From the NCBI GenBank assembly GCA_010356995.1, contig ML996707.1, forward strand, positions 496,001-525,958: a stretch of 29,958 nucleotides of DNA, written 5' to 3'. Both the position numbers and the translations under genes were made by a program. Positions 3,409 through 29,227 of this stretch are shown one piece after another. The notes below the pieces were generated by a model. It did not search any database and was not told where the DNA came from. It worked only from the letters and a program-made list of their open reading frames with translations. The first letter of the stretch is position 1, and every line of letters begins with the position of its first letter. The stretch is from Trichodelitschia bisporula. Taxonomy: Eukaryota.

Positions 3409-4541
3409 ATGGCACATCACGCAGTCTGGACCATGTCCTTCAAGGACCGCGCCGCGCTCCCAAACACTCCCCCACTAGCCGCCTACCTCCTCTACCTCAT
3501 GACAATCAAGCAATCAAACCTATGCCTCAGCGCCGACGTCACCAGCACCGCGGAGCTCCTTGCCCTAGCCACCGAAGTCGGCGACAGCATCTGTCTCCTT
3601 AAAACCCATGCCGACATAATCGACGACTTCGGCGACCGCACCGTCCGCGCATTGCGCGAAATCGCACGGCAAAAAAACTTCCTCGTCTTCGAGGATCGCA
3701 AGTTCGGCGACATCGGCAGTATACCTCCCCCACCATACCATCCCCCCCCCCCCTTCCCCTCCCAGCTAACCACCCCACCCTAGGCACGGTGCAGAAACAA
3801 TACACCGCCGGCCCCCTCGCCATCGCCAAATGGGCTGAAATAACAAACGCCCACCTCTTCCCCGGGCCCGCCATCGTCCCCGCGCTCAAATCCGCCGCCG
3901 CCTCCGCCATCGCCGCGTACAACACAACCGTGCACACCGAGATTTCCGTCGGCCCACCCGCCTCGCCCTCCCCTCCCTCGCCCTCACCTCCCTCCTCCTC
4001 CCCCCCCGCCGGCCCAGTGGGACGGAAACAATCCACCGTGTCCATCAGCACCACAATCTCCACCCGCACCGAGCCCATCTCCCCGCAGCCGACACCGGGA
4101 CTCGCCGGTGAACCAGCGGATGTGCTGGCCCGCCTGGGCGCGACGCCGTATCTGCGCGCGCTGCTGCTGCTCGCGGAAATGAGTTCCGAGGGACACATGC
4201 TCACGCCTGAATACCGCGAAGCATGCGTGAAGACCGCGCGCGAGCATCGCGATTTCGTGATCGGGTTCGTGGCGCAGCGCGCGCTGAATGCGGAGCCGGC
4301 GGATAATTTCATCACGTTTACCCCGGGGGTCAGCTTGCCGCCGCCTGGACAGGAAGGTGTGCGCGGGGATGGGTTGGGACAGCAGTATGAGACACCGCGG
4401 GATGCGGTGCTGGGCAGGGGTTGTGATGTTGTTATTGTCGGTAGGGGGATTTTGAGGGCGGAAGATAGGGCGAAGGAGGCGGAGAGGTATCGGAGGGAGG
4501 CGTGGAGGGCGTATGAGGAGCGGGTGGGCGCGGCGGCGTGA
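3409..4541 (+). CDS. pyrG: Orotidine-5'-phosphate decarboxylase, one intron (3719-3783)
   Basis: Motifs SNLCLSADV, LKTHADII, FEDRKFGDIGSTVQKQY (catalytic DxKxxDIxxT after splicing), LLLLAEMSSEG, GDGLGQQY, IVGRGI. Intron GTATAC...CTAAC...TAG. Confidence 0.97.
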
Positions 4542-15595: not shown

Positions 15596-16718
15596 TTATA
15601 CCGCGCTGTATCCACCCCTCGATCCGCCGCTTTGCACGGTTGAAACGACTCTCCTGCCCCAGTCCTTCATGAGGAACGGGATATCGCGGATCGCATCTCC
15701 GTGAGGCACCATATCTAGACCACGTGCGCCATACCTCGAAAAAGTTAGCTTGTGCGGCTTGCTCATCGCCGGTGCCTTACCTGTTGTAGTTCAACCAAGA
15801 GCCGAAGATAAGGTATGCAGCAACGACCATGAAGAGACTATGCGCGTTAGCTATGAATATAGCCCCCGGAATCTCATAACACCCACATAATGATGAACCA
15901 GGTGAAAAATCCCCAGCCTCCCGAGCTGGAAGATGGCTGACCGTTGGAATCTTCGCATGCATACTTTGTACGCCAGTCGAGCCGTAGAACGCCCCATTCA
16001 TCATCACGAATAGTCTCCGTCTTGTAGCTGATAAAGCTCAGACTCTTCGTAAGTGGCTTCTCTGCGCCCTTCTTCGGTTCGTCGCGCCTTGTGAGAGATT
16101 CGCCGTCGTCATCGATCTTATCCCGGTTGTCCGGCTCGTCGCCCTCCAGCCCAGTACGATCGCGGTCGCAGATAAACTCGATGATAGCCTTTTGCTTCAC
16201 GCCGCCTTTGTTGAGGGGGTCCTTGCCCCCCTTCATCTCCAACCGCACGCCCTCTCTTTCCGCATCCGCATGCGACCCAGATGTGCGAAGGCGCGTCGGC
16301 GTGATTTCGAGAGGCGTTCCGGTCTTGAGCGTGTAGTCACCGGCGATGGGTACAACATGCGCGATAGTGGACGTGTTGTCAACGGGATTTGAGATGCGTT
16401 GTATTCCACACACTGGCGGAATCAGCGATAGCCACCAGGTACTTCGTTCTACCAACCTCTAGTCATCCCGGGACACTCGTCCGAGGCGGGCACTCCTTTC
16501 GTCCGTCTCAACGGTCGACATATATCCAGCGTGAACGTCCAGTTCGAGATCCCAGGACTCAGCTCCCGGATGTAGTGCACCGAATGCGGTCCTCCCAGCT
16601 CTCCGAGGTTCCATTTAACTTTGTCTTGCACAATGGCCTTGCAGTCGAAGCCGAGACCGGCGATTAAACTTGGTAAGGAGGCCAGGGCAGCAGCTGTGTG
16701 CAGCGACGAGCGAACCAT
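15596..16718 (-). CDS. ATG27: Autophagy-related protein 27 (type I membrane protein with MRH-like lumenal domain), multi-exon
   Basis: Signal peptide, FDC...LGGPHSV, TLDICRPL, LRLDWRTKYACE, TM region WGFFTWFII...AAYLIFGSWLNYNRYGARG, C-terminal RGGYSAV sorting motif. Confidence 0.92.
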
Positions 16719-17124
16719 GATGGAAGCCGGAGGTCGCCGACAGCGAGGCAGGGCAGTATAGCCTCTTAGAAAAGTTAAATGAGTCTGTAAGAAGGGAAGA
16801 TGAAGAGGGTCGTGGCACAAGCGTGGTGGTTTGACGGGTCTGAGAGACTTGATGGCACGCGGCCATGTCGGCATGACGCTGTTCGCTGATCGATGGCAGG
16901 TTATGCACGTGATCATTCTCGCACAAGGGTCAAGGACCACCTTAAAAAGTCGTGGCAGTCCTGTCAGAATCTCTTTGCGGAAAGGGGCGGCCACGACATT
17001 CTCTGGTGGCCATTGGCTCGGCAGATAAACGGCTCAATTCAACCCTCAAGCTTCACGGAGCGGACAAAGAACCATCTCTTGTGTAAATTATCTCTTCATA
17101 ATTATGTTCCCGCTAACTACAAGC

Positions 17125-17139
17125 ACATACGGCCATAGG
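17125..17139 (+). rRNA. 5' end fragment of a 5S rRNA gene, disrupted by element insertion
   Basis: ACATACGGCCATAGG matches the recalled ascomycete 5S 5' end (ACATACGACCATAGG). A TCATAAT box starts 29 nt upstream (17096). The rest of the 5S gene is not seen in the window. The match is short. Confidence 0.55.
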
Positions 17140-17164
17140 TCGGAGACTGCACCTACGTTCGCGT
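17127..17164. other. Putative hybrid recombination site (attL-like): 14-bp arm / 10-bp spacer / 14-bp arm
   Basis: ATACGGCCATAGGT-cggagactgc-ACCTACGTTCGCGT, 9/14 inverted complementarity. Positionally homologous to the perfect site at 29190. Confidence 0.55.
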
Positions 17165-17467
17165 TCCCAATTTGGTAAAACTCTGAATTTAGGCTAGCGT
17201 CATATATCCTTTGTCATCAGGCTTGGCGAATATTGTCTAATTAAAGTTGCCATTATTAAGCGCGCGACTACGGAAGGGAACTGTCGATTCTGCTTTTCAA
17301 CTTTTCAAAACTCCAGGACGACGAATAAGGCGTCCTCAGATGCCTTCGGTAGGGGCGTTGTTAGATGGTCCTTAGGAGGGCTGGGAGGTAAACTGGTTAA
17401 TGCTCTGACTTAAATATCCCCGAAGACCAGTGCTGGTTCAGAAGTCAACCTTCTGCCCTCGATCTAA

Positions 17468-19029
17468 ATGTCAACGCAAAACTTCGCTCACCTTCTCTCT
17501 AGGCTGAAAAGCCGCCGAGTGGAGGCAAGATACTCGAAATCGGCAAAACACAGCCTGAGCCGAATCCACCGCCAATGGAAAGAGTTCTGTGAAGCTGCAC
17601 GAGCCTCCGATATACCTAATGGAGATGCACTTTTCAGTGACCCTGAAAAGTATATGGCGGAGGCTGACCCTGAGCTGGTTATGTTGTTCCTGAAATGGAC
17701 TTTGGACACGCGAAAGGGAATCCGAAAAGAGATAACTATTAACGCCTACTATGACCGGTGGCACACCACTCGAAGACAAATACCGCATCACCGAGCGTGG
17801 AGCCTTGAGGACAGGAAGCGTGTTAATTCAGTAAGAGACTCATCTTGATAAACTCGAAACTAATTTTGTATAGTTCATCTCTTTGGATCTAGCCTCTGAG
17901 CATGGACTCAGTAGAGAACGACAGCCGAAGCCTGTCCTAAGCTTTGCCGATATTACCATCCTTCTCAACCACCTTTGGAAATGGGACAGGCTGCAGTATA
18001 GAAACGAGAGATTACGAGTCCAAGTGGCCTTGGTTTTACTGATTTCGATGGCTATGGCAACAAGGCCAGCGGCATTGCTTGAGACGGAGTACGCCAAAGA
18101 AGATCTTGGGGAACCACCCAAAGTACTTTGTTATGAGCATGTCAGGCTCTTCTTAGTCCGCGATTCCGAACGGATGAGACAGAAGCTGGTTCTGGAAATC
18201 AACCTTGTCTTTCACAAAGGATATGAGCGAAATCCCAAACCGTAACTTCAGTTTGGCATTTGCATGCTAATAATCTTCTACAAGAACCACCCACATTCTT
18301 ACCGAGACAGAGAATCTTATCGTTGATCCCATAATACTCCTGCTGGTTCTCGCATTCCAGGATGACGCCTTTAGGGGAGGAATCAAATCATATGAAGACA
18401 TTCAAAGACTTGTTATCCCGGATCATCTTGAGAGGTTGAAACTCTCCTGGCAGCCAAATATGCACGGCATTCCAGTGTTTCGTCAAGCAAAACCACGCAG
18501 CAAAGAGATGGAAAGCAGGAAGCCTTTCGCATATACGTCATATTTGCACTACATGCAACGCCTTGGTGCGGAGGCGGGGTTCCAGACTATGCTCACGCCT
18601 TACATGATTCGGCGCGGTGTTGGAGAGGCGCTTGAAAGTCAGTATGCTTCTTTCCACGTAGTAATTTAACATCATCGTCTGTAGATCCGCAACGGAGCAA
18701 CAACTTCAACAACTTATGGGTCATCGGCTTGATCGAACGTTCCAGTCCTATATCAACCGCGTAAGTCAAGTGCATACGCAGGCAGTCTTTGCCAATGAGG
18801 AGCCGGACCACGGGGCTATGGACCTGCTGTCACACCAAGCCGTCAACCGGGACCCGCGTGCCCAGCCGTCCAATATGGTGCTACGGCACCAGCCTGGTTA
18901 CAACTCTCAGCCCGGTCTTTCCCAGCTCTTGAAGAAAAGGGATGATGCAAAATTCGCAATTCTGATGACTGGGTCAACCGTCAGAGATGCACATATGAAC
19001 TGTCCTGATCTTGCTCAGCTGTATAAAAC
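17468..19029 (+). CDS. DUF3435-like tyrosine recombinase (Starship captain), truncated at the C-terminus by LTR insertion; introns 17831-17873, 18242-18284, 18642-18684
   Basis: Spliced frame is open for ~477 codons, with MATRPAALL (R), VFHKG (K), LLLVLAFQDDAF, LTPYMIRRG (R), QLMGH (H), TFQSY (Y). Confidence 0.88.
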
Positions 19030-19296
19030 TGTCATGGGAGGATACCATCTCTCCCATGTCAAATGGCCACATGTCCTGTATGGGTCACGTGACTCGGCAA
19101 GATTGATGCCGGATGCTGCAATTCCAGCCCCGGCTAGACTTGCCGGTGAGGGCTTGGCGCTGGCCTGTGCGCTAGCACCCCCAGCTCCCCCACGCTCCAC
19201 ATTCAGACGCGAAACCTTTACATAGTTCTTCAAGCTTTCAATGAATCTTATTCCACAACCAATGCTGTGCAGCCAGTGATTTGTGCGCCCCTGACA
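19030..19296 (+). mobile_element. Probable LTR of a Ty3/Gypsy-like retrotransposon (267 bp)
   Basis: Begins TGTCA and ends TGACA. Begins where captain-like sequence stops and is followed by a gag-like sequence. No matching TSD (AAAAC vs ATATC) and no second LTR seen. Confidence 0.65.
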
Positions 19297-19419
19297 ATAT
19301 CTAAGAACCATAAGCTAGAAGAGCCCAGCGCTACGTCTAAATGACTTATACTAAATATAAGTAATCTTAGGGCAGCGCCTACTATTAAAAGCGGTACCTC
19401 GATCTTAATCGATTAATCG

Positions 19420-19906
19420 TCCTACCAATGCTTCTGTTCTCTATCCCACCGAGCATGCCAAGCTCCACTACATCCTGTTCCGCACCAAAGGAAAGATGTC
19501 CGCTCCGATCGTCGGCCGCATAGGAAAGATAGCATGAATCATTACCAGTCTGCGGAGATGATCAAGGATCTCACTCAGGCCCTTGGTGATTATGACGCCA
19601 CCCGTCGTGCGGAACGTCGCCGCGACGATCGTTCCGACTTCCCGATGAAGGAGAACGAGGATCTCGGGAGTACATCACTCGGTTCGCTAGCGTGGTCAAC
19701 GACATCCCTTGGTACCATTATAGCCCGGGTGTCGAGAGGCAGAAAACCAATCTCTTCCGCCAGAACTTAACGAAGGAGATCCTTCAGGCTGTCTGCCACA
19801 TGGACGAGGACCTCGGCTTTGAAGCTATCCGCTGTGCTGCTGCCAACTACTATCATAACGCGCACCGTGACAGGGTTAGAAGATATATTGATCAGGCAGT
19901 AAGTTA
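19420..19906 (+). pseudogene. Frameshifted retrotransposon gag-like remnant
   Basis: Across frames: YPTEHAKLHYILFRTKGK...NHYQSAEMIKDLTQALGDYDATRRAE...YITRFASVVNDIPW...KTNLFRQNLTKEILQAV, resembling fungal Gypsy capsid regions. Confidence 0.55.
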
Positions 19907-20117
19907 GGGAGGTGGGTATTTCTAGTATAAGCTCCGACTACTTATCAAGTTAAAGATACTCCGAAGGAAGAAGAACCGGTAACTCCCTTTTAGCTCCATA
20001 CCATACCCTCCACGGTTTAGCAGAATAGACCTGGGGCAAAACTATTCGAGCGTCTAAGGCGACATATCCCCTACTGCTGAGCGGCCTACCGGTACTATAG
20101 CCTATACTCCCTCCACC

Positions 20118-20563
20118 TTCTAGCGGCCTACCTCCTACTTTATTAGGCGGCATATTCCCTACCACCTAGCGGCATATCCCCCACCAATCGGCACATCCCA
20201 TACCACCTAGCTGCGTATCCCCTACCACTTAGCGGCATAGCCCCTATTAAAGGTCAGTGTGGGTCCAAGGTGCCAGGGCTACCCGTAACAAGTCCTGAGC
20301 GAGCCCCCCGGGACTGTTTACTAGAGAAGCGCTCATAACTCTTAGGTGTACCCTGGACCCACATATGCGACATTGACCTTTAATAGGCCTGATACCGTAG
20401 TACCTAGCGGCGTATCCCCTACCACCTAGCGGCATATCCCCTACAACCTAGCGGTATATTCTCCACCTAGCGGCATATCCCCTCCCACCTAGCGGCATGT
20501 CCCCTACAATTTAGCGGCACATATCCTACTACCTAGCTGCATATCCCCTACCACTTAACGGCC
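20118..20563. repeat. Two blocks of a ~22-bp minisatellite (ACCTAGCGGCATATCCCCTACC) at ~20118-20246 and ~20402-20563; TpA-rich, RIP-like
   Basis: Units counted directly (~6 and ~7.5 copies). Both blocks end in ACCTAGCTGC(G/A)TATCCCCTACCACTTA(G/A)CGGC. Confidence 0.85.
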
Positions 20564-20575
20564 TAGACCGCTTCT

Positions 20576-20674
20576 GAATGGCCCTCGAGCGTCTGCAGCG
20601 CCTTTCCCGACCTGGCGTCCCACAGCCTAGGACGCCGGGTCGGGAAAGGCGCTGCAGACGCTCAAGGGCCATTC
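20576..20674. repeat. 45-bp inverted repeat made of head-to-head WD40 repeat units
   Basis: Arms 20576-20620 and 20630-20674, 2 mismatches, 9-nt loop. Confidence 0.85.
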
Positions 20675-21381
20675 GAGTGNNNNNNNNNNNNNNNNNNNNN
20701 NNNNNNNNNNNNNNNNNNNNNNNNNNNNNNNNNNNNNNNNNNNNNNNNNNNNNNNNNNNNNNNNNNNNNNNNNNNNNNNNNNNNNNNNNNNNNNNNNNNN
20801 NNNNNNNNNNNNNNNNNNNNNNNNNNNNNNNNNNNNNNNNNNNNNNNNNNNNNNNNNNNNNNNNNNNNNNNNNNNNNNNNNNNNNNNNNNNNNNNNNNNN
20901 NNNNNNNNNNNNNNNNNNNNNNNNNNNNNNNNNNNNNNNNNNNNNNNNNNNNNNNNNNNNNNNNNNNNNNNNNNNNNNNNNNNNNNNNNNNNNNNNNNNN
21001 NNNNNNNNNNNNNNNNNNNNNNNNNNNNNNNNNNNNNNNNNNNNNNNNNNNNNNNNNNNNNNNNNNNNNNNNNNNNNNNNNNNNNNNNNNNNNNNNNNNN
21101 NNNNNNNNNNNNCCGGCTCGGGAAAGGCGCTGCAGACGCTCGAGGGCCATTCGGAAGATTTCATGGCCGTGTCCTCCTGGTTGGACGGCAAACAGTCGCT
21201 AGGTTCCGGATCGGATTCTCCACGTTTGAGAGTTATCAAGGAATGGATAACCATATGCGCGGAAAAACGTCTTTGGCTTCCAGCCGAGTATCGCAGTCCG
21301 AGGACCGTCGCCGTTCACGGGGATAAGATTGGATTGGGGTATTCGTCCGGTCGAGTGCTGTGTATGGAATTCATTTGTTGA
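20628..21381 (+). pseudogene. C-terminal fragment of a HET-E-like NACHT-WD40 (NWD) NLR; WD repeats mostly hidden in the assembly gap
   Basis: *DAGSGKALQTLKGHS before the gap. After it: GSGKALQTLEGHS...EWITICAEKRLWLPAEYRSPRTVAVHGDKIGLGYSSGRVLCMEF, the typical NWD tail. No NACHT domain visible. Confidence 0.8.
20680..21112. other. Assembly gap (N run)
   Basis: Run of N. Confidence 1.
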
Positions 21382-21956
21382 AGTGTCCCTTGACCTCCTC
21401 CCCACCCACCTCCGTTGCGGTCTGAGCCCTTTTATACCTTTTTGAGAGTGAAAGTGGCAAGGGATTACAAATGGGAATGGTACGGCTTTGAAATCAAGCA
21501 CTCCAATAGCAAATGGTAACAGTGGCATACAAAGATATCGCCAGATCAGTGAAGTAATGGCTTCAATGCAATGGGGATCTGGAAACATCTGGAATTAGCC
21601 ATTCCTTCAGTGCATAGAGAAGGTATGATGGAATGTAGTGGCCGTGTTCAATGTTTGCCACTCCCAGCCACATGCTCGGCGCTTGTCCTCCATTCCCCTA
21701 TACGCACTTCCACACGCCCTTCCACATACACGTACCTCCCATACACACGCTCCCCCCACACACGCGCTGCTCCGGGTCCGTAAACAATCTGACATACTCG
21801 GGTCTATTTACCCGGCCTGGGTGCTCGCTCAGGCCTACCCCGGCCCTGACTGTCCAATTAACCATTTTGAATCGCTCATGAAGGGAATCACACTCCAGCC
21901 TCGCCTCGATCAACAGTGTAGCGAACAGGCCACGCCTGCTGTAGCCCAGGAGCCAA

Positions 21957-23920
21957 TCATGACCACAGCGCAAATTCTGGAACAACATCCTTGAGCATGT
22001 TGTCGAGAACAACGCACGTGGAAAATCCGGGATCGAAAACCACGAATAAGAGGTTTGGACACGTCGCTAAACGAACATTAGAGATCCGGACAAACGACAG
22101 AGGGAAGGTTGAACTTACGGAAGGACTTTGCTGGCCGAGACCTTCGGAAATCGACCACGATCCAGTCCTGAAAACTGAAAGAGGTGTAACGGCCTTCCCC
22201 GACAAACCGGTCGTAATGCTCCTGCAGTTGGATCCCATCCCGCAGCAATTCAATGCCCCAATGGACCTCAGAGATCACAAAGTCGATTCGCTGCCCGCCC
22301 AATTCCTTGCTGGAAAACTCCGGGGTGGGAATGACGCGTGCTCTGGTGACCTTGTATATCGTGCGGTAGAGTTCGGCGCCATAGGCAGCTTCTGGAGTCT
22401 TGGATTCTCGTCGTAGGGCATACCCACAAAACGACTTCAGGGCAGTCAAGACACACTCCCGTACGCTCTTGAATGGGAAAGAGAGGGTGAGTTGTGGAAC
22501 AACGGTCATCGCGGCAAACCTGGCTAAGGTTAGCTATAATTCGTTCAAAACAGTATAATGGACATAACAGCGATGAACTTCGGTCGGATAAGTATAGACC
22601 ATGGAATTGCCGTCTTTCACAACGGCGTGCAGGTAGCCCTTGACATAGCACATGCGAAGTGCTTCAGGATTTACGTCCTGTAGCCGAGCGAACCCTTCTG
22701 TCGCAACCTTGATGAGAACTTTGCGGGCATCGAGGTTCTGAAACGACTCATGAGGAAATCCGCGGTATGCAGCACAGCTTTGGATGACGTTTACGAGGCC
22801 ATCCGTATTGAACAAGAAATGCTCAAGGGAAGCAGACTGAATATTCTCTCCCTTTCTGGCGATCATTTTGCAATCCTGGATCATTGAAGGCTGAAGTCAG
22901 CAAGGCGCAACCGTACAGATTGCTAGGGAAAAGAATGAGACCCACATGGGATTCCAGGAAGTTCTCAATCAGGGCAGTCGCAAGGCCAATGTGACCCTCA
23001 GAAAACTTGAATAGCATGTCTAGGGCCTCATTCGAGATTGATGCGGATTTCGCCGTAGTCTTCTTCAACCCCCAGCTCATGAACTCTTCTAGCGAGAAAA
23101 ACATGCCCACGTGGATAAAAGTTGACGGACGTAGCCCGACAATGCAATTCTCGGGAAGTGTCAATGGAGTCAATGCACTCTCGTGATTGCCAAGGTCCGC
23201 CGAACTGCCATAGCAACAGGCCAAGACAAACTTGATACTTTGTGGTCTTGTTTTGAATTTCTCCAAGACAACCTTGATAGCCTCGTTCCAAAAGGGTGCA
23301 TCAGTGTAACTCGTCTGCCCTTCATCGAAAAGAATGTAGGCTGGAGTGCGAAGGACGTCTGCGTGGGCATCCAGCAATAGTTCCTTCAGCTGATGAAACC
23401 AGAGCCTCGTTGCCCCGTTAGGGTAACGGGAAAGAAGATGGACCTGATTGCCTTGGAGACGAAGGTAGTGATAGAGGAGGTCCATGACGCTGGTCTTTCC
23501 GGACGCGGGGGTGCCTCGAAGCTGAACGACACCGGTGTGATCAAGACGCTCGACAACAGCCTTCAGGAGGTTTATTCGGGGCTCCAGGCAAAGGTATTGT
23601 GCGACTTCATCGTAGGTCGGGATATCGAGTGGAATTCGCTCGCTCGCACCTCTCGCGATTGTGGCAAAGGATTCCTCTTGGGGCACTTCATTCTGGTTAG
23701 CTAGACCGGGGAAGGATGAGTTGCTGTCCTCACCAACGTCAATCCCTGAAGAGGGCAGTGCAGCAGCTGTAGTCGGCAGACTGGGCGTGTCGTGGATTGA
23801 GAATGCATGACCGCAAACTGTGCAGGTTGGATCACCGCCTGCGCCCGCCGGCGCCGAAGCCTGCATACAAAGGCACCCCATCATTCCTTGCCTGAAGCGG
23901 CATGGTCCACGGAACACCAT
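21957..23920 (-). CDS. Crinkler-type P-loop NTPase + PD-(D/E)xK restriction-endonuclease-fold protein with N-terminal Cys/His motif; three introns, one with a non-canonical donor
   Basis: N-terminal GCLC...CTVCGHAFSIH; Walker A RGTPASGKTS; Walker B ILFDEGQTSY; C-terminal EAAYGAELYR...TPEFS...RIDFVISEVHWGIELLRDG...EHYDRF...GRY...WIVVDFR. Confidence 0.8.
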
Positions 23921-23928
23921 GATGGGTG

Positions 23929-23988
23929 GGCTGGAAGGGCGTGAAGAGAGAGGGCGCCGGCTGGAAGGGTGTGAAGAGTGAGGGCGCC
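23929..23988. repeat. 30-bp tandem duplication just 5' of the NTPase-REase start
   Basis: GGCTGGAAGGGCGTGAAGAGAGAGGGCGCC / GGCTGGAAGGGTGTGAAGAGTGAGGGCGCC. Confidence 0.85.
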
Positions 23989-26405
23989 AAAATATGTTCA
24001 TGATGGATGATAGCGTCCCTAAATCTGGAGTTCTTGATGGCGACTGACGTGGGTACAGGCAGTACTGATGGTGTGAGTTGCTAGGCCTACGTGTTAAGGC
24101 AAGGTTCGGTTGCTTGAGAGCGAGCTTCCGGCCTTTGTTTATTCACCAAGCACATGGAACATCCTTCAATCAACGACACATACGTGTTTCCTTGGACGCA
24201 CGCAAAAAAAAATACCTATATCGACGCACGGATCGGATCCAAAGCTTCCAGCCAACCGATCATCACTTTGCCTTGATTGATACCACACGGAAGCAAGGCT
24301 ATGATGGTTAGAAGGGTTTCCGGCCGACGGGTTCTCTGTACAGCAAAGTGACGATCAGCCACGTTCCGACATAGCCACGCATACGAATCAAGCCACCGAA
24401 TCCACTCACTCGGTAGGTATCGGCCCGACTTTAATCCGAGAGTCTGTGCACTCTGCAGTCATGTCTTTCTCTGTCTCCCAGATGCCTCTGCCTCCCGGCG
24501 TAACGTTCGCTGACCTCAACGTATCGAGAACGGCTTCACTCTCAACGCCAAAGCGGCCGCGGAGTATACACTCATGGAGCCCCTGCCGGCGCTGAACATC
24601 CGCAACCGCAAGCGCAGCCTGGATGTGAGATCACGGCTGTGATGGCCATAGGCACTGGCTGTCTATGATCTGCCATGGCCGCAGCACCCATGACAGCAGC
24701 ATCCGTGAGATTACCTCGTTCAGCCTCGGCGGCACAAGTTACATCACCCGCCACGCAGCCAAGTCCCACCGGATCACACCCTCAGGGTCCCCGCGGCTCA
24801 CTACTGGCCAAGAGATTCTTCGACTCGAGCTCGTCCCGAATGACTGCATCCCATAGACCCCAGTCTGCTATCGACTTGAGCGTGAATATAACACGTGACC
24901 TCTCGCTGGCCATAGTGGCGGTGGCGGTGGCGGTGCACGACCTCCGAAGATCGTGGAACCAACTCGACTCGCTCGACGGGCCGCCCCTTCCCCGGCGGCG
25001 GCGACGGCACCACAACCGGCGGCAAGGGGCGCTCCGTCGAGGCGGGCGCCGAGGTGCTCAAGCGTATCGGCCGTACGTTCAAGGAGACGCTAGGGCTGAA
25101 TGACAGCGAGCAGGTCGAGTTCTCCGGGCATACGGACGCGGCGACGAGTGGCAGCACGCGCGCGAAGGCGAAGCTGTCGGTCTAGGCTGGTGCTGGTAGA
25201 TGTGTGCTGTAGACGGTTGAATGAGTAGTGGCGCAACAGGTGGTCGACACGACATGATCCCACCGTCCGCTGCTCACTGCCGCTACACAACTCTCATCAC
25301 ATCATCGTTATCAAGGGAGATGAATTAGTCTACCTGTCCAACGCCCACAGACAAACGCGGGGAATGACAGTTCTAGCTCATAACAGCCCAACAGCCAGAC
25401 CAACTCGCAAAGCCGAACGACGTGAAAAGGACAAGCAAGCAAAACTAAGCCTTCTCGCGATTCCACGACTTGGGGAAGTCTCTCTTCTCGTTGACGTCCT
25501 CACTGTTCGTCTTCTTCTTTTCCTTCTTCTTCTCGGACAGCGGCGCCTTGCCATCTTCGCTGCTAGTCTTCTTCTTGTCCTTCTTGTCGGCTGTCTTCTC
25601 CTTCAAGTTAGGCACGCCATCACGGCCTCCACACACTCACTATCGCAGTGATTCCACCCGTTGCGTGAGGCGCATTGAGCATTTCTGTCCATAGGTGGGA
25701 GGTGTGGTGAGTGAAACCAACATCTGCTTGTGGCTATCGCGGTCGCGCCAAGCGCCCGCGCTACAGCAGGTGAATGGTCGTGCCTTCCTGTCCTTCTACA
25801 GTTCAAAGTCTACATGCTCTCCGCCGTGACAGGTGGAGATCATCCGCAGGAATCCATGGAAGATATGGACTGTCCGCCGTCGGTTCAACTAAAGTTGGAA
25901 GTCTGGTAGAGTCAGGATTGTCACTTTGCCGCGACAGTGATCTAAGATCGGTCCTTGTAACAGTAGTCATTGAGTCGTGAAACGTATTAAAAATCCAGGT
26001 TGTGATATCCGTGATTGCGCTCCCAACCCTCGCCCGGCCCAAGACGCATGAGCAAACATGAATACAGTCAAATATGGATGGGGAGGCAAAATTCCGCGGA
26101 AGAGAGGTCGAAACCGAGAACAAAAAATCTATCACGTCTTGTACATGTCCATTGCGTTTCTCGTGCCTGATTCGAAAGCATGGCTATCCGTTGAGGGATA
26201 TCCATCGGGCCACATATGCGTCGGGAACCTCATCTTCGCCGAGACGTCATGGGGCCCGCGGGAAGCCACCTCGCCCGGGCCAGCACAAAAAGCACACAAA
26301 CTGGGTCCGTCTGACATGGAGTCCCAACATGAGTCCCGGTACCAGCTGTGGGAGCCGATGAGTCCGGTATCCATCATCGGCATGGTTGCCAATCCATGGA
26401 CAAGT

Positions 26406-26506
26406 TCCACCAACATGGCACGGATGTTGAACCACGCGCTTCCGTCAGGATCCACCAACATGGGATGGAAGTTGGGTTATGCATTTCCGTCGAAGTCCAC
26501 CAACAG
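26406..26506. repeat. Degenerate 45-bp period repeat
   Basis: TCCACCAACA recurs at 26406, 26451 and 26496, and TTCCGTC recurs at the same spacing. Confidence 0.65.
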
Positions 26507-26603
26507 CATAGCTCTCCATCCAGAACATGGACAGCCCATACGGAGCACGGGAGGGACGTTGAATCACCCATTCCGCCGCGCAACTTGATGGCAAGCATAG
26601 AGG

Positions 26604-27850
26604 TCATCGCTTTGAGTTCCTCTCAAGGGCCCTGGTTTCCACATCACCATCTTCGGTCAAAAGCACGGTCTTAGCCTGGCCCTCCCTGTCCAGATTCAGA
26701 TCAGTGGCCCTCCGTGCAATGTTCATGACAATCTCCTGGTCCTGCATGGCCGTGCTTTGGCCATCTATGTCCATCTCGTCTTCGTCCTTGACCCGAAGCT
26801 GGTCCGTCCGGTCGTCGCCGTCCTGGGTCAAGACGCGGACATTGCTCTTTCCTTTGATGGCCGCACGCGACCGCTTCTCGGCAAGCGAGTCCTTAGGCAG
26901 ACGGGAGGCAACTGCGAGTCTTACTAGACAGAGTTGTTGAAACCTACATTCAAAGGGAACAATAATGTTCCAGTGCATTTGCATGACTCTCTCGAACTCA
27001 TCCCGTTCGAGCGTGCTCTTGTCGACAACAACTTTGAAAGTTTAGCGGCCTGGAAGGGAAGGGAAGGTGAAGCATACTTCGAAAGAGATATCAGTCTGCA
27101 TCGGCTCAGGCAGCGAGGCATCCGCCATGACGAGGTCGACTTCCTCATCAACACTTCCTGGTGTCATGGCACCTGCGCTAAGGCTTGGACTGGCAAAGTT
27201 TGCGACGACGTAGAACTGCTTGTTCGCCTGATCGGATCCAATGTATTGTTTGTCCTGAAGACGTTAGCCCAATGCCGGCCGAGGTGAAGTGCGGTGGTTG
27301 TTACAGCGGCCAGCCGATGCATCAGCCATAAGACGCGACCGGCTCGGATGATAGAGGTGCTTGCCCGTTCAATCAAGCATTCATCGTCGTCCACACCCAT
27401 CCCTTTACCCTCGAACCAGTCGCTGGGATAGTAGCCATCGGCAGCATAAATCTGGCCCCGCAGCTTAAAGTCCTCGGGCAGAGGTCCATTGGCCCCCCTC
27501 TGGTCGCACGAAGTCTGGCGCTTGATAACTCACATCCTCTCTTTCCGATTTGTCCAGAGCATTGGCATAATCGCAGAGCGCAGACCAAGGCTGAGCCCCT
27601 AAGATGCGGTTCGCAGATGACGTATACTTGTTGGACTGGAGAAGCTGAGAACAGATGAAACAAAGGTTTCTGTTGATTGATGTAGACTGAACTGTCGAGT
27701 GTACCATGTGGGCAACTCGTACTATATAGGAAGTATGAAACAGGAGTGGCGTCGAGCCAAAGATACGATGAAACAAGACAATGGAAGTAAGCAATCCCGA
27801 GCGCTAATGGATACCGGCTACAAAGATACCGAACGCGAAGTGATACAGGA
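26604..27850 (-). pseudogene. Est1/Ebs1/SMG5-6-7-like pseudogene with C-terminal PIN-like domain; 5' limit uncertain
   Basis: PWSALCDYANAL...DFVRPEG, then a frameshift at the C6 run 27493-27498, then PLPEDFKLRGQIY...YYPSDWF...DDDECLIERAS...RAGRVLWLMHRLAA. Intron 27255-27304. Then VVVDKSTL...WNIIVPF...TVLLTED (PIN-like). Confidence 0.7.
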
Positions 27851-29189
27851 ACTTACAATATCAGAAGGCTGTAACAAATGGGAATCCGTCTAACAGGTTA
27901 CCTATGAATTTCCCTAAGATTCTGGAGGGAGAAGAAGAATTTACCATGCTGTTGCCGCTCGATGCCCAGGTGAAACGAACTGGCGAAGGATGCCTGGTAT
28001 CGCCCCATAAGCCTCTGAAGGAATCTTGTGGGTATGGTTGCCTATCATTGCCGCTCCCGATCCTGATGAGAGCAAATGATATCCTGGTTGCGTGTCGTCC
28101 CCACTTGAGGCTCCCAAAGGAGGGCACTGACTGCAGCTTAAGGAATTACTGTCTATGGCGCGAGGTAGAATCTCTACGGGTCGGTTCATGTCTGTGACGG
28201 AGGTTATGAATCATTTGTACATCTCTTACGCGCCCAGGAGTGTGCTAAGCGCTGATAGTGTTAGCTGATGTCACTTTTAGAGCGGTAAAGCAAACCAAGC
28301 TCCTCAGCATCCCTGGAGGGTAGACACCCTGCAAGCGGAGGGCGTAGGGAGGGGCGGAAAGCATCTATGCTGCATATCAATCACCGTGGCTCCCTAAACT
28401 AGAGGCAGCTCTACACTCTAGGCTGGCGTTTGAACTGCGGGGGTGTTCAAATAATGCGGCAGCCAGGAGGGAAGGCGAGTCCACCAGATAACCAAGTCTT
28501 CCGCCGGCGGGCTTTCACTCTCTGTCCGAGCTGGGTATGTATGCCAAAGCTGAGGCGGGGGCGGATGAGGTACGCACAGTAATGGCTGTGGCCTACGCCG
28601 CACTGCACCTTTACGCCATACCTACTGAGCCATATCAAATTGCGCTTTACGTGTGACTCAGTGGTTCACCTATCATCCAGCCCCATAACACGGTTTCATC
28701 GGATATGCTACTGGATTTTTGTTAGCCCTACCCTCAGTCTCGAAAAGTCTGAGTATGAGCTGTTCGTAAAATGCAGTACTCTCGGCCTTGAGGCCAGGCG
28801 GTGAATGGAGGACACAAAAAGAAAATCCAGAAGAACTTCGCATCGGACGAGGCTGGTTGATCTACACGCTTCCGAACTTTACAGGTCGACTCGTGGCCAT
28901 AGCAGCGTGGTGAGCATATGAGGCGTGCGGTCAAGTGCATCTCCTATCGACAGGGAGTAGTTGATGCGGGAAGTGGGTTGGTGGTGATTCCAAATTAATA
29001 TTGCCCATGGATTCTTGGCGTTTAAATTCCGCTGGCGTTATTAGATGGAATTTGCGATGGGATTCAACGGTATGACCAGGGAGGCTTGTTTTCAGCGAGG
29101 GTAGCTGACATAAGTTATATAACGTAATTTACAATCTTTGAGGCTTAGACACGGAGAGGAACAACTAGGTCCGGATTGCCTATTTCGGC

Positions 29190-29227
29190 ACGCGACCATA
29201 GATCTGAGAATGTATCTATGGTCGCGT
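29190..29227. other. Perfect 14-bp inverted repeat with 10-bp spacer; putative recombinase att site at the junction of two elements
   Basis: ACGCGACCATAGAT-ctgagaatgt-ATCTATGGTCGCGT. Confidence 0.7.

What the first reader, a model, noticed from the sequence alone, without database searches (positions are those of the whole stretch)
17096..17164. Element appears inserted into the 5' end of a 5S rRNA gene
Seen: ACATACGGCCATAGG at 17125, with a TCATAAT box 29 nt upstream, directly abuts the repeated element leader. No downstream 5S body follows. Known: filamentous ascomycete 5S genes are dispersed, begin ACATACGACCATA and have an upstream TATA-like box near -29, and some Starship families target 5S rDNA. 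Inference: the 5S 5' end supplies the left arm of a hybrid attL site.
Basis: partly seen in the sequence, partly recalled or inferred. Interest (0 to 1): 0.8.

Follow-up and report, generated by a model that had tools for sequence, protein, structure and literature searches.

The report
Mini-Starships splitting fungal 5S genes
A fungal jumping element has cut a small ribosomal RNA gene in two here; this habit is known, but in this genome unusually small relatives, many lacking their own jumping enzyme, occupy about a third of these genes and mostly carry one immune-receptor gene.

Summary
Confirmed. Window 17125-17142 is nt 1-18 of a dispersed 5S rRNA gene, joined to the left end of a Starship-type DUF3435 tyrosine-recombinase element (17143-29205). 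A second element follows in tandem; their junction has 14-bp inverted arms around an 8-bp spacer. The 5S remainder is not on this contig, which ends after a gap, and no empty allele could be tested. Genome-wide, 27 of 76 5S heads are split this way; 19 pair with a downstream element-5S hybrid, and helix II re-pairing places the exchange after nt 18. 5S targeting near nt 20 is known (Voyager). The differences here: 16 of 19 paired spans are under 10 kb (a published survey discarded elements under 15 kb); five copies at separate loci share one captain deletion, implying mobilisation in trans; 18 of 21 close NACHT matches lie in or beside these elements; 9 of 24 hybrids are followed by a 455-bp module ending in an intact 5S gene; and the captain groups with a Phoenix-labelled clade rather than Voyager (weak sampling). 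Mobility is inferred from one assembly, not shown.

The parts
15874..16718 (-). ATG27 gene (host flank, divergent from the 5S gene); 3' exons not mapped, start codon inferred
   Evidence: Pfam PF09451 E 2e-29 on ORF 15874-16458; start read; single-copy depth over 16000-16937
17096..17102 (+). Upstream TATA-like box of the 5S gene (-29 to -23)
   Evidence: matches the A-27/T-26/A-24 consensus of 70 5S heads
17125..17142 (+). 5S rRNA gene nt 1-18, host-derived left part of attL
   Evidence: identical to the start of 13 of 41 intact-headed 5S genes
17143..17163 (+). Element left terminus: 7 nt of spacer that mimics 5S nt 19-25, then the recombinase-binding arm
   Evidence: nt 19-22 and 24-25 invariant in 12 of 12 family I left ends but variable in 38 intact genes; arm is an imperfect inverted repeat of the 5S arm, 8 of 14
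17143..29205 (+). Element 1, 12,063 bp including a 433-base N gap and later insertions
   Evidence: bounded by attL and the tandem junction
17468..19029 (+). DUF3435 tyrosine-recombinase 'captain', four exons (17468-17830, 17874-18241, 18285-18641, 18685-19029), 477 codons, C-terminal part missing
   Evidence: PF11917 on three exons; splice model; alignment to homologues; exons 3-4 single-copy at 88% likeness
19030..19296 (+). High-copy TG...CA insert (solo-LTR-like) that ends the captain; no target duplication
   Evidence: depth about 50-100 times single copy, loose ends at 19030 and 19296; termini
21113..21668 (+). 3' tail of the NLR cargo gene and its downstream region; the rest of the NLR is absent or in the gap
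   Evidence: DNA matches near the right ends of many sister elements; no Pfam hit on the 88-aa piece itself
21669..25604 (.). Inserted repeated segment with a STAND-type NTPase gene on the minus strand; right limit approximate
   Evidence: copies on C24, C29, C20, C4; weak PF20720/PF13191, below cut-off
29191..29226 (+). Tandem junction (attP-like): right arm of element 1, 8-bp spacer 29205-29212, left arm of element 2
   Evidence: arms 13 of 14 complementary; fold z -6.8, 0 of 200 shuffles; same structure at C3:249693 and on C31
29206..29958 (+). Left end of element 2 with captain exon 1; followed by an N gap, a copia-like sequence and the contig end
   Evidence: 94% identical to element 1

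Best explanation
The site is attL of a Starship-type element. A DUF3435 tyrosine recombinase recombines a circular element's attachment site (two 14-bp inverted arms around an 8-bp spacer) with the pseudo-palindrome formed by 5S nt 4-17 and 26-39. The exchange falls between nt 18 and 19, so the 5S head and promoter flank stay on the left, and nt 19-119 end up behind the element's right arm as a misfolded, decaying hybrid. That hybrid is still a target, so a second element integrated there and gave the tandem junction at 29191-29226. In this genome the system consists mostly of 5.5-9 kb non-autonomous derivatives that keep the ends, have lost the captain and carry one PNP_UDP-NACHT NLR gene; they were moved in trans by a captain such as the one in this window. 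Some carry a 455-bp 5S-spacer-5S module at the right end, so an intact 5S gene stands behind them. Shown: junction sequences, exchange point, pairing of heads with hybrids, shared deletion, cargo. Inferred: recombinase catalysis, the circle, order of tandem insertion, mobilisation in trans, loss of 5S function.
For: 27 of 76 heads lack a body; the 24 heads of families I and II switch to element sequence at the same place. 19 of 27 heads pair with a co-oriented hybrid within 40 kb. Rejoining head and body in 11 pairs gives the best helix II pairing after nt 18: 80 Watson-Crick and 4 mismatches, against 77 and 9 after nt 17 and 77 and 6 after nt 19. Hybrids deviate at invariant columns far more than intact genes (24 vs 38 genes, p about 1e-8) and fold worse (-25.7 to -30.9 in 4 hybrids vs -35.5 and -36.3 in 2 intact genes). 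Five family I copies (C3 twice, C9, C11, C27) lose the captain at the same base, window 18357, and continue into the same sequence. One family II element read in full (6.9 kb, with an N gap in the repeat region) has one long gene, PNP_UDP_1 + NACHT/NPHP3_N, and no DUF3435 match. Of 21 NACHT matches at 80% identity or more, 15 lie in paired elements (one is the query) and 3 beside unpaired ends. Contigs assembled separately from the source sample carry the unique flank through 17149 without differences. Circular intermediates and captain-dependent integration are shown for Hephaestus (10.64898/2026.09.21.753150); Voyager inserts 20 bp from the 5S start (10.1101/2021.12.13.472469).
Against: No empty allele: only the source sample holds this stretch. 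This array's own attR is off the contig. The window captain lacks its C-terminal part (homologues mostly 600-770 aa), so it may be dead; only one other DUF3435 copy, on C13, keeps the catalytic exons. The helix II test rests on few informative positions, includes one pair (C13:158916) whose hybrid is disrupted, and has exceptions at nt 19 (C11:730464, C3:239729, C13:158916). Left-end and right-end types are mixed among pairs, so some pairs may hide several elements. 6 of 19 paired elements have no NACHT match. The 5S gene after the module is of one helix II type in 7 of 9 cases against 3 of 15 module-less hybrids, which a simple nt 18/19 exchange does not predict. No subterminal inverted repeat was found between the ends of element 1.
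Confidence: 0.85

Rival explanations
1. The insertion site is as described, but the captain-less copies spread by homology-driven copying or recombination between 5S sequences and between sister elements, not by recombinase-catalysed excision and integration in trans.
For: 5S sequence stands at both ends; end types are shuffled among pairs; the module's helix II bias suggests exchange beyond nt 61; the two C5 loci share a downstream flank at 89%; hardly any complete captain remains.
Against: Only 18 nt of homology on the left; the junction falls at the same base in 24 family I and II heads; 39 of 68 upstream 100-bp flanks are unique, and the clusters are element ends, modules or arrays; one element sits inverted at C11:912798 with the same head.
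Confidence: 0.08
2. The 18-nt head belongs to the element itself (a 5S-derived terminus) and is not a host gene that was hit.
For: At C3:513567 and C4:83403 the head follows a shared module spacer; right arms do mimic 5S nt 1-18.
Against: The window's upstream flank is single-copy and has the 5S upstream consensus; head variants at nt 15, 17 and 18 re-pair with their own distant bodies; the three tandem left ends have no 5S head.
Confidence: 0.04
3. Mis-assembly of repeats joins a real 5S head to an unrelated repeat.
For: Short-read-type assembly with N gaps inside both elements; a hairpin beside the gap at 20576-20674.
Against: Separately assembled contigs of both runs run from unique flank to 17149 unchanged, including C at nt 23, which none of 38 intact genes has; 27 loci show the same pattern.
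Confidence: 0.02
4. Chance resemblance to a 5S start.
For: With 3 mismatches allowed, 24 of 100 shuffles give a match.
Against: The match is exact over 18 nt, expected about 1e-5, and recurs at 12 left ends.
Confidence: 0.005

Closest known systems
Voyager Starship of Macrophomina phaseolina (Voyager family, fam10)
   Same: DUF3435 captain at the 5' end; always in a dispersed 5S gene, 20 bp from its start; predicted loss of 5S function; only some 5S variants hit (10.1101/2021.12.13.472469, section 8 read).
   Different: Voyager is 74-124 kb with 10-47 genes and 0-4 copies per isolate; here spans are mostly 5.5-9.2 kb with one NLR, at 27 heads. Voyager has an 11-12 bp direct repeat; here the ends are imperfect 5S mimics. 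The captain scores 97 bits against the one fam10 protein held and 200 against a fam01 protein.
5S-targeting Starships in general (Enterprise, Arwing, Voyager families; Osiris of Aspergillus fumigatus)
   Same: 23% of 222 insertion sites lie in 5S rDNA, with at least 5 distinct target sites (PMC11162782, section 23); 5S-rich loci are Starship hotspots (10.1101/2024.06.28.601215, passages); NLRs are recognised auxiliary genes.
   Different: That survey removed elements under 15 kb and started from recombinase genes, so this size class was excluded. All published sites are described as disrupting the gene; no restoring module is mentioned in the passages read.
Phoenix family captains (fam01, clade 1)
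   Same: The captain is sister (98/94) to a clade holding the fam01-labelled Beauveria protein KGQ11636.1.
   Different: Only 29% identical, on a long branch (1.38); Phoenix elements are reported mostly at AT-rich sites.
Derelict (degraded, captain-less Starship regions)
   Same: Starship cargo without DUF3435.
   Different: Described as old copies decaying in place; here copies with one shared deletion occupy five loci with intact ends, which points to movement after captain loss.
Bacterial tRNA-targeting integrative elements and their satellites (recalled, not tested)
   Same: Tyrosine-recombinase att sites in a conserved small RNA gene, tandem accretion, target-gene restoration, non-autonomous satellites carrying defence genes.
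   Different: Eukaryotic host and multi-copy Pol III target; restoration here is through an appended module in a minority of copies.

Membership tests
Starship superfamily | DUF3435 tyrosine recombinase as first gene at the 5' end, pointing inward | tested here: met
   PF11917 over cut-off on three exons; start 325 bp inside the left end
Starship superfamily | Catalytic residues retained | tested here: inconclusive
   R185, K236, R353, H376, Y385 are conserved against 8 homologues; their catalytic role is recalled; the gene is cut after codon 477
Starship superfamily | Direct repeats at both boundaries | tested here: inconclusive
   Ends are imperfect mimics of 5S nt 1-29, not exact repeats; the array's final right end is off the contig
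Starship superfamily | Terminal inverted repeats | tested here: met
   14-bp arms, 13 of 14 complementary at the element 1/2 junction and 12 of 14 at C3:249693; no longer subterminal repeat in element 1
Starship superfamily | Empty site in another isolate | not testable with these tools
   Only the source sample holds the stretch; no relatives held
Starship superfamily | Cargo or auxiliary genes (NLR, PLP, FRE, DUF3723) | tested here: met
   NLR in 13 of 19 paired sister elements; only a tail remnant in element 1; PLP, FRE and DUF3723 not searched genome-wide
Starship superfamily | Published size range, 15 kb and up (a survey filter, not a definition) | tested here: not met
   12 kb here; 16 of 19 paired spans under 10 kb; filter stated in PMC11162782
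Voyager family (fam10) | Captain within the fam10 clade | tested here: not met
   35-row tree with six labelled proteins; the single fam10 row is long-branched and not with the captain; weak test
Voyager family (fam10) | Insertion about 20 bp from the 5S start | tested here: met
   Exchange after nt 18 vs 20 bp; orientation of Voyager relative to 5S not established from the text read
Phoenix family (fam01) | Captain within the fam01 clade | tested here: inconclusive
   Sister to, not inside, the clade with the only fam01 label; seven families (2, 4, 5, 6, 7, 9, 11) had no labelled reference
5S-derived SINE or Cassandra-type element | Internal 5S promoter carried in the element's head or terminal repeat | tested here: not met
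   No 5S body at the left end or elsewhere in the window

The most novel reading that the evidence does not exclude
A natural non-autonomous Starship system that works like an integron spread over the genome: dispersed 5S genes are the att sites, single NLR immune-receptor genes are the cassettes, a rare captain of a Phoenix-related lineage supplies recombinase in trans, hybrids allow tandem stacking, and a captured 5S-spacer module lets elements restore the gene they cut and so multiply and move 5S genes. Use of the next 5S gene downstream as an alternative right end would also be a concrete route for cargo capture.
Probability: 0.45. Interest if true: 0.82.

Novelty: new variant of a known kind. 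Interest (0 to 1): 0.64.

Why it matters
The single junction is an instance of known biology. The set around it gives a base-resolved att architecture for a 5S-targeting captain from many natural events in one genome, which makes three open questions testable: where Starship recombinases cut, whether Starships have non-autonomous miniature forms, and how fungal NLR genes multiply and move. A 5-9 kb element with a defined multi-copy target and a possible target-restoring end is also a natural template for site-specific gene delivery in filamentous fungi. The data suggest that surveys which require a captain and 15 kb miss a whole class.

Tried and rejected
Rfam on the window found no 5S, only one chance match at E 1.7: 18 nt is too short. 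Seven of eight stretches asked for downstream do not exist; the contig ends at 530,595, so the 3' remainder could not be sought in place. Five unpaired hybrids near contig edges (C25:568, C8:1263325, C18:764958, C23:9060, C17:783643) are candidates; all are compatible in helix II, so none can be picked. Sequencing runs: only the source sample; its contigs showed no joint and no listed loose end into a 5S body, with 56 loose ends not shown, which says nothing about rare empty sites. The word-index protein search found nothing; phmmer found 276 relatives; the 32 strongest are at most 44% identical. The metagenome scan gave 26 loci, mostly ordinary 5S genes; none matched the window, the NLR or the captain, and four heads without a body (two distinct sequences) are within chance. 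No further att site lies inside element 1. The tree of 10 module spacers is unresolved. No captain C-terminus was found after the insert. No RIP-like skew between the two left ends (38 differences in 730 bases). An early idea that the exchange lies at nt 20-22 was dropped because nt 19 follows the downstream partner. The idea that these elements cause the nt 18-25 variation of 5S was dropped because other fungi show the same types. Direct-repeat look-up in the survey's tables found no matching 5S site, but tables S11-S15 and Figure 5C were not available. No structure or complex was predicted.

Full report
Observation. The motif is at 17125 and the box at 17096. Rfam finds nothing in the window but 47 5S genes in the genome. 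All 30 of these that were fetched start with the same head or a one- or two-base variant. The window's 18-mer equals the start of 13 of 41 intact-headed genes, with about 1e-5 expected by chance. The upstream box and the bases at -5 to -1 fit the genome's own 5S consensus. The flank to 16937 is single-copy, and contigs assembled separately from the source sample run unchanged to 17149. No 5S body follows in the window or up to the contig end, which comes after an N gap and a copia-like sequence.

The element. A spliced DUF3435 gene starts 325 bp inside the left end. It keeps R185, K236, R353, H376 and Y385, conserved in homologues (their catalytic role is recalled). It ends at codon 477 in a 267-bp high-copy TG...CA insert, with no C-terminal remainder. 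A second left end, 94% identical, starts 12,063 bp downstream. The junction there is two 14-bp arms, 13 of 14 complementary, around 8 bp. This is the layout of a tyrosine-recombinase core site (established knowledge). The 5S gene offers a weak version of the same palindrome (8 of 14), with nt 18-25 as spacer.

Genome-wide pattern. The head pattern has 76 matches and the body pattern 79; 49 heads have a body and 27 do not. Of the 27, 12 continue into the window's left end (family I), 12 into a second left end (family II) and 3 into other sequence. I examined 24 hybrids in which an element arm replaces nt 1-18. Nineteen heads pair with a co-oriented hybrid: 1.2 kb, fifteen of 5.5-9.2 kb, and 16.5, 25 and 30 kb. 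Nt 19 is G in 12 of 12 family I and C in 11 of 12 family II ends, so it belongs to the element; nt 18 varies with the host. Rejoining head and body in the 11 pairs that the script classed as module-free gives most helix II pairs after nt 18 (80 Watson-Crick, 4 mismatches; neighbours 77 and 9, 77 and 6). One of the 11 (C13:158916) has a disrupted hybrid and is in fact followed by a module, and three loci disagree at nt 19. Hybrids have drifted at otherwise invariant columns (p about 1e-8) and fold less stably, so they are probably dead genes. Hit genes are biased to certain helix II types (12 of 15 vs 10 of 29, p 0.01; counts entered by hand into).

Non-autonomous NLR carriers. Five family I copies on four contigs lose the captain at exactly window 18357 and continue into one shared sequence; in the two copies tested this leads into the NLR's upstream region. 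One deletion at five 5S loci implies movement after loss of the enzyme. The one family II element read in full (C3:394875-388017) holds a PNP_UDP_1-NACHT gene followed by a gapped repeat region that looks WD40-like (recalled motif, no Pfam hit), and no captain. None of the 11 DUF3435 matches lies beside a family II left end. Of 37 NACHT matches, 21 are at least 80% identical to this gene: 15 in paired elements (one is the query), 3 beside unpaired ends, 3 outside my intervals, one of which lies between a family II end and a 5S-body match on C11. Thirteen of 19 paired elements hold a match; six do not. In element 1 only the 3' tail remains, followed by a later insertion. Counts from genome searches are lower bounds.

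The 5S module. A 455-bp unit (5S nt 19-119, about 335 bp spacer, 5S head) occurs at 10 places on 8 contigs, 91-94% identical to the C19 copy. Nine follow a hybrid and one an intact gene (9 of 24 vs 1 of 38, p 5e-4, hand-entered). The next att site is an intact 5S gene in nine of the ten and an attL in one. Copies on C1, C3 and C12 share arm and body mutations, so arm, dead 5S and spacer moved together and the second 5S is probably their working right end. Against a simple reading: the second gene is one helix II type in 7 of 9, the two C5 copies share a downstream flank and are not independent, and the spacer tree is unresolved.

Mechanism. Shown: the junctions, exchange point, pairs, shared deletion, cargo and module. 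Inferred: excision to a circle, integration at 5S nt 18/19, re-targeting of the hybrid to give tandems, and mobilisation in trans. Circles and captain-dependent integration are demonstrated for Hephaestus (10.64898/2026.09.21.753150; parts 1-2 of 4 read), and boundary repeats are proposed to be element-borne target mimics (PMC10104507, passages). Spacers of element and host often differ, so full spacer identity is not required. Not tested: an empty allele and this array's own right end.

Comparison. Voyager inserts 20 bp into 5S genes (10.1101/2021.12.13.472469; section 8 and passages). 23% of surveyed sites are in 5S, with at least five target positions, and elements under 15 kb were removed (PMC11162782; section 23, passages and supplement tables S1, S3, S4, S7). 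Tables S11-S15 and the figures were not available and may record this site or family. In a 35-row tree with six labelled proteins the captain is sister to the clade with the Phoenix label (98/94, long branch, bootstrap not settled) and apart from the single Voyager row. So it works like Voyager, is a Starship by its captain and ends, and is probably not a Voyager-family member. NLR cargo is known (passages of PMC13562431, PMC13449251), as are captain-less degraded regions. I found no report of natural captain-less miniature Starships moved in trans, of single-NLR elements at 5S genes, or of a 5S-restoring end in eight literature searches (listings) or in passages of 10.1101/2024.06.28.601215, PMC12134995, PMC13486527, PMC12506042 and PMC13004909. 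The library lacks most subscription papers.

Verdict. Alone it is a new member of a known kind; with its genome-wide context it is a new variant: small, largely non-autonomous, NLR-carrying, stacking, and in part target-restoring. Interest 0.64.

Noticed in passing
G000:C4:75636-, C4:83698-, C5:355954+, C19:626995+ (L025, L033, L022, L007): Further 5S-spacer units of 295-312 bp, related to the 455-bp module at their ends; the spacer start also follows the hybrid at C19:629924.
   Followed up: partly
G000:C16:142337-143271 and 655647-656779 (L004, L005): Two tandem 5S arrays with a 200-bp period that share spacer sequence and alternate helix II types.
   Followed up: no
G000:C11:912798 (L090): A 5S head joined to the reverse complement of a right end, with NLR matches on the opposite strand: an element inserted in inverted orientation.
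   Followed up: partly
G000:C13:329457-320362 (L092, L098): A 9.1-kb element with its own left end and a second DUF3435 gene that keeps the catalytic exons (single stops in two matches, possibly introns); a candidate helper captain.
   Followed up: no
G000:C5:102084- and C5:131964+ (L110, L111): Two elements in inverted arrangement share their downstream flank (89%, two copies only) but not their upstream flank; possible 5S-mediated rearrangement.
   Followed up: partly
G000:C11:433811 (L107): A family II left end without a 5S head, preceded by a short head-like motif, with an NLR match and a 5S-body match 7.3 kb downstream.
   Followed up: partly
L114:750-875, L128:1501-1625, L115: 5S genes of other organisms in metagenome contigs appear interrupted near nt 70 and nt 90 by foreign sequence: other 5S-targeting insertions.
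   Followed up: no
window 20059-20565 and 20576-20674: A 22-bp tandem repeat with an internal inverted section, then a near-perfect 45-bp hairpin of NLR repeat sequence beside the N gap; the hairpin may be an assembly artefact.
   Followed up: no
window 27629-27895: A second TG...CA repeat of 267 bp, 96-97% identical to copies that interrupt sister captains on C3 and C30.
   Followed up: partly
window 21669-25604: Repeated segment with a STAND-like NTPase gene, 92-96% identical to copies on C24 and C29; possibly another mobile element.
   Followed up: no
G000:C16:629773+ and 644736- (L094, L095): Two strongly decayed 5S pseudogenes with intact heads, facing each other 15 kb apart.
   Followed up: no
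window 3416-4541: An orotidine-5'-phosphate decarboxylase-like gene (motif recalled, not searched) with an unusual proline/serine-rich insertion.
   Followed up: no
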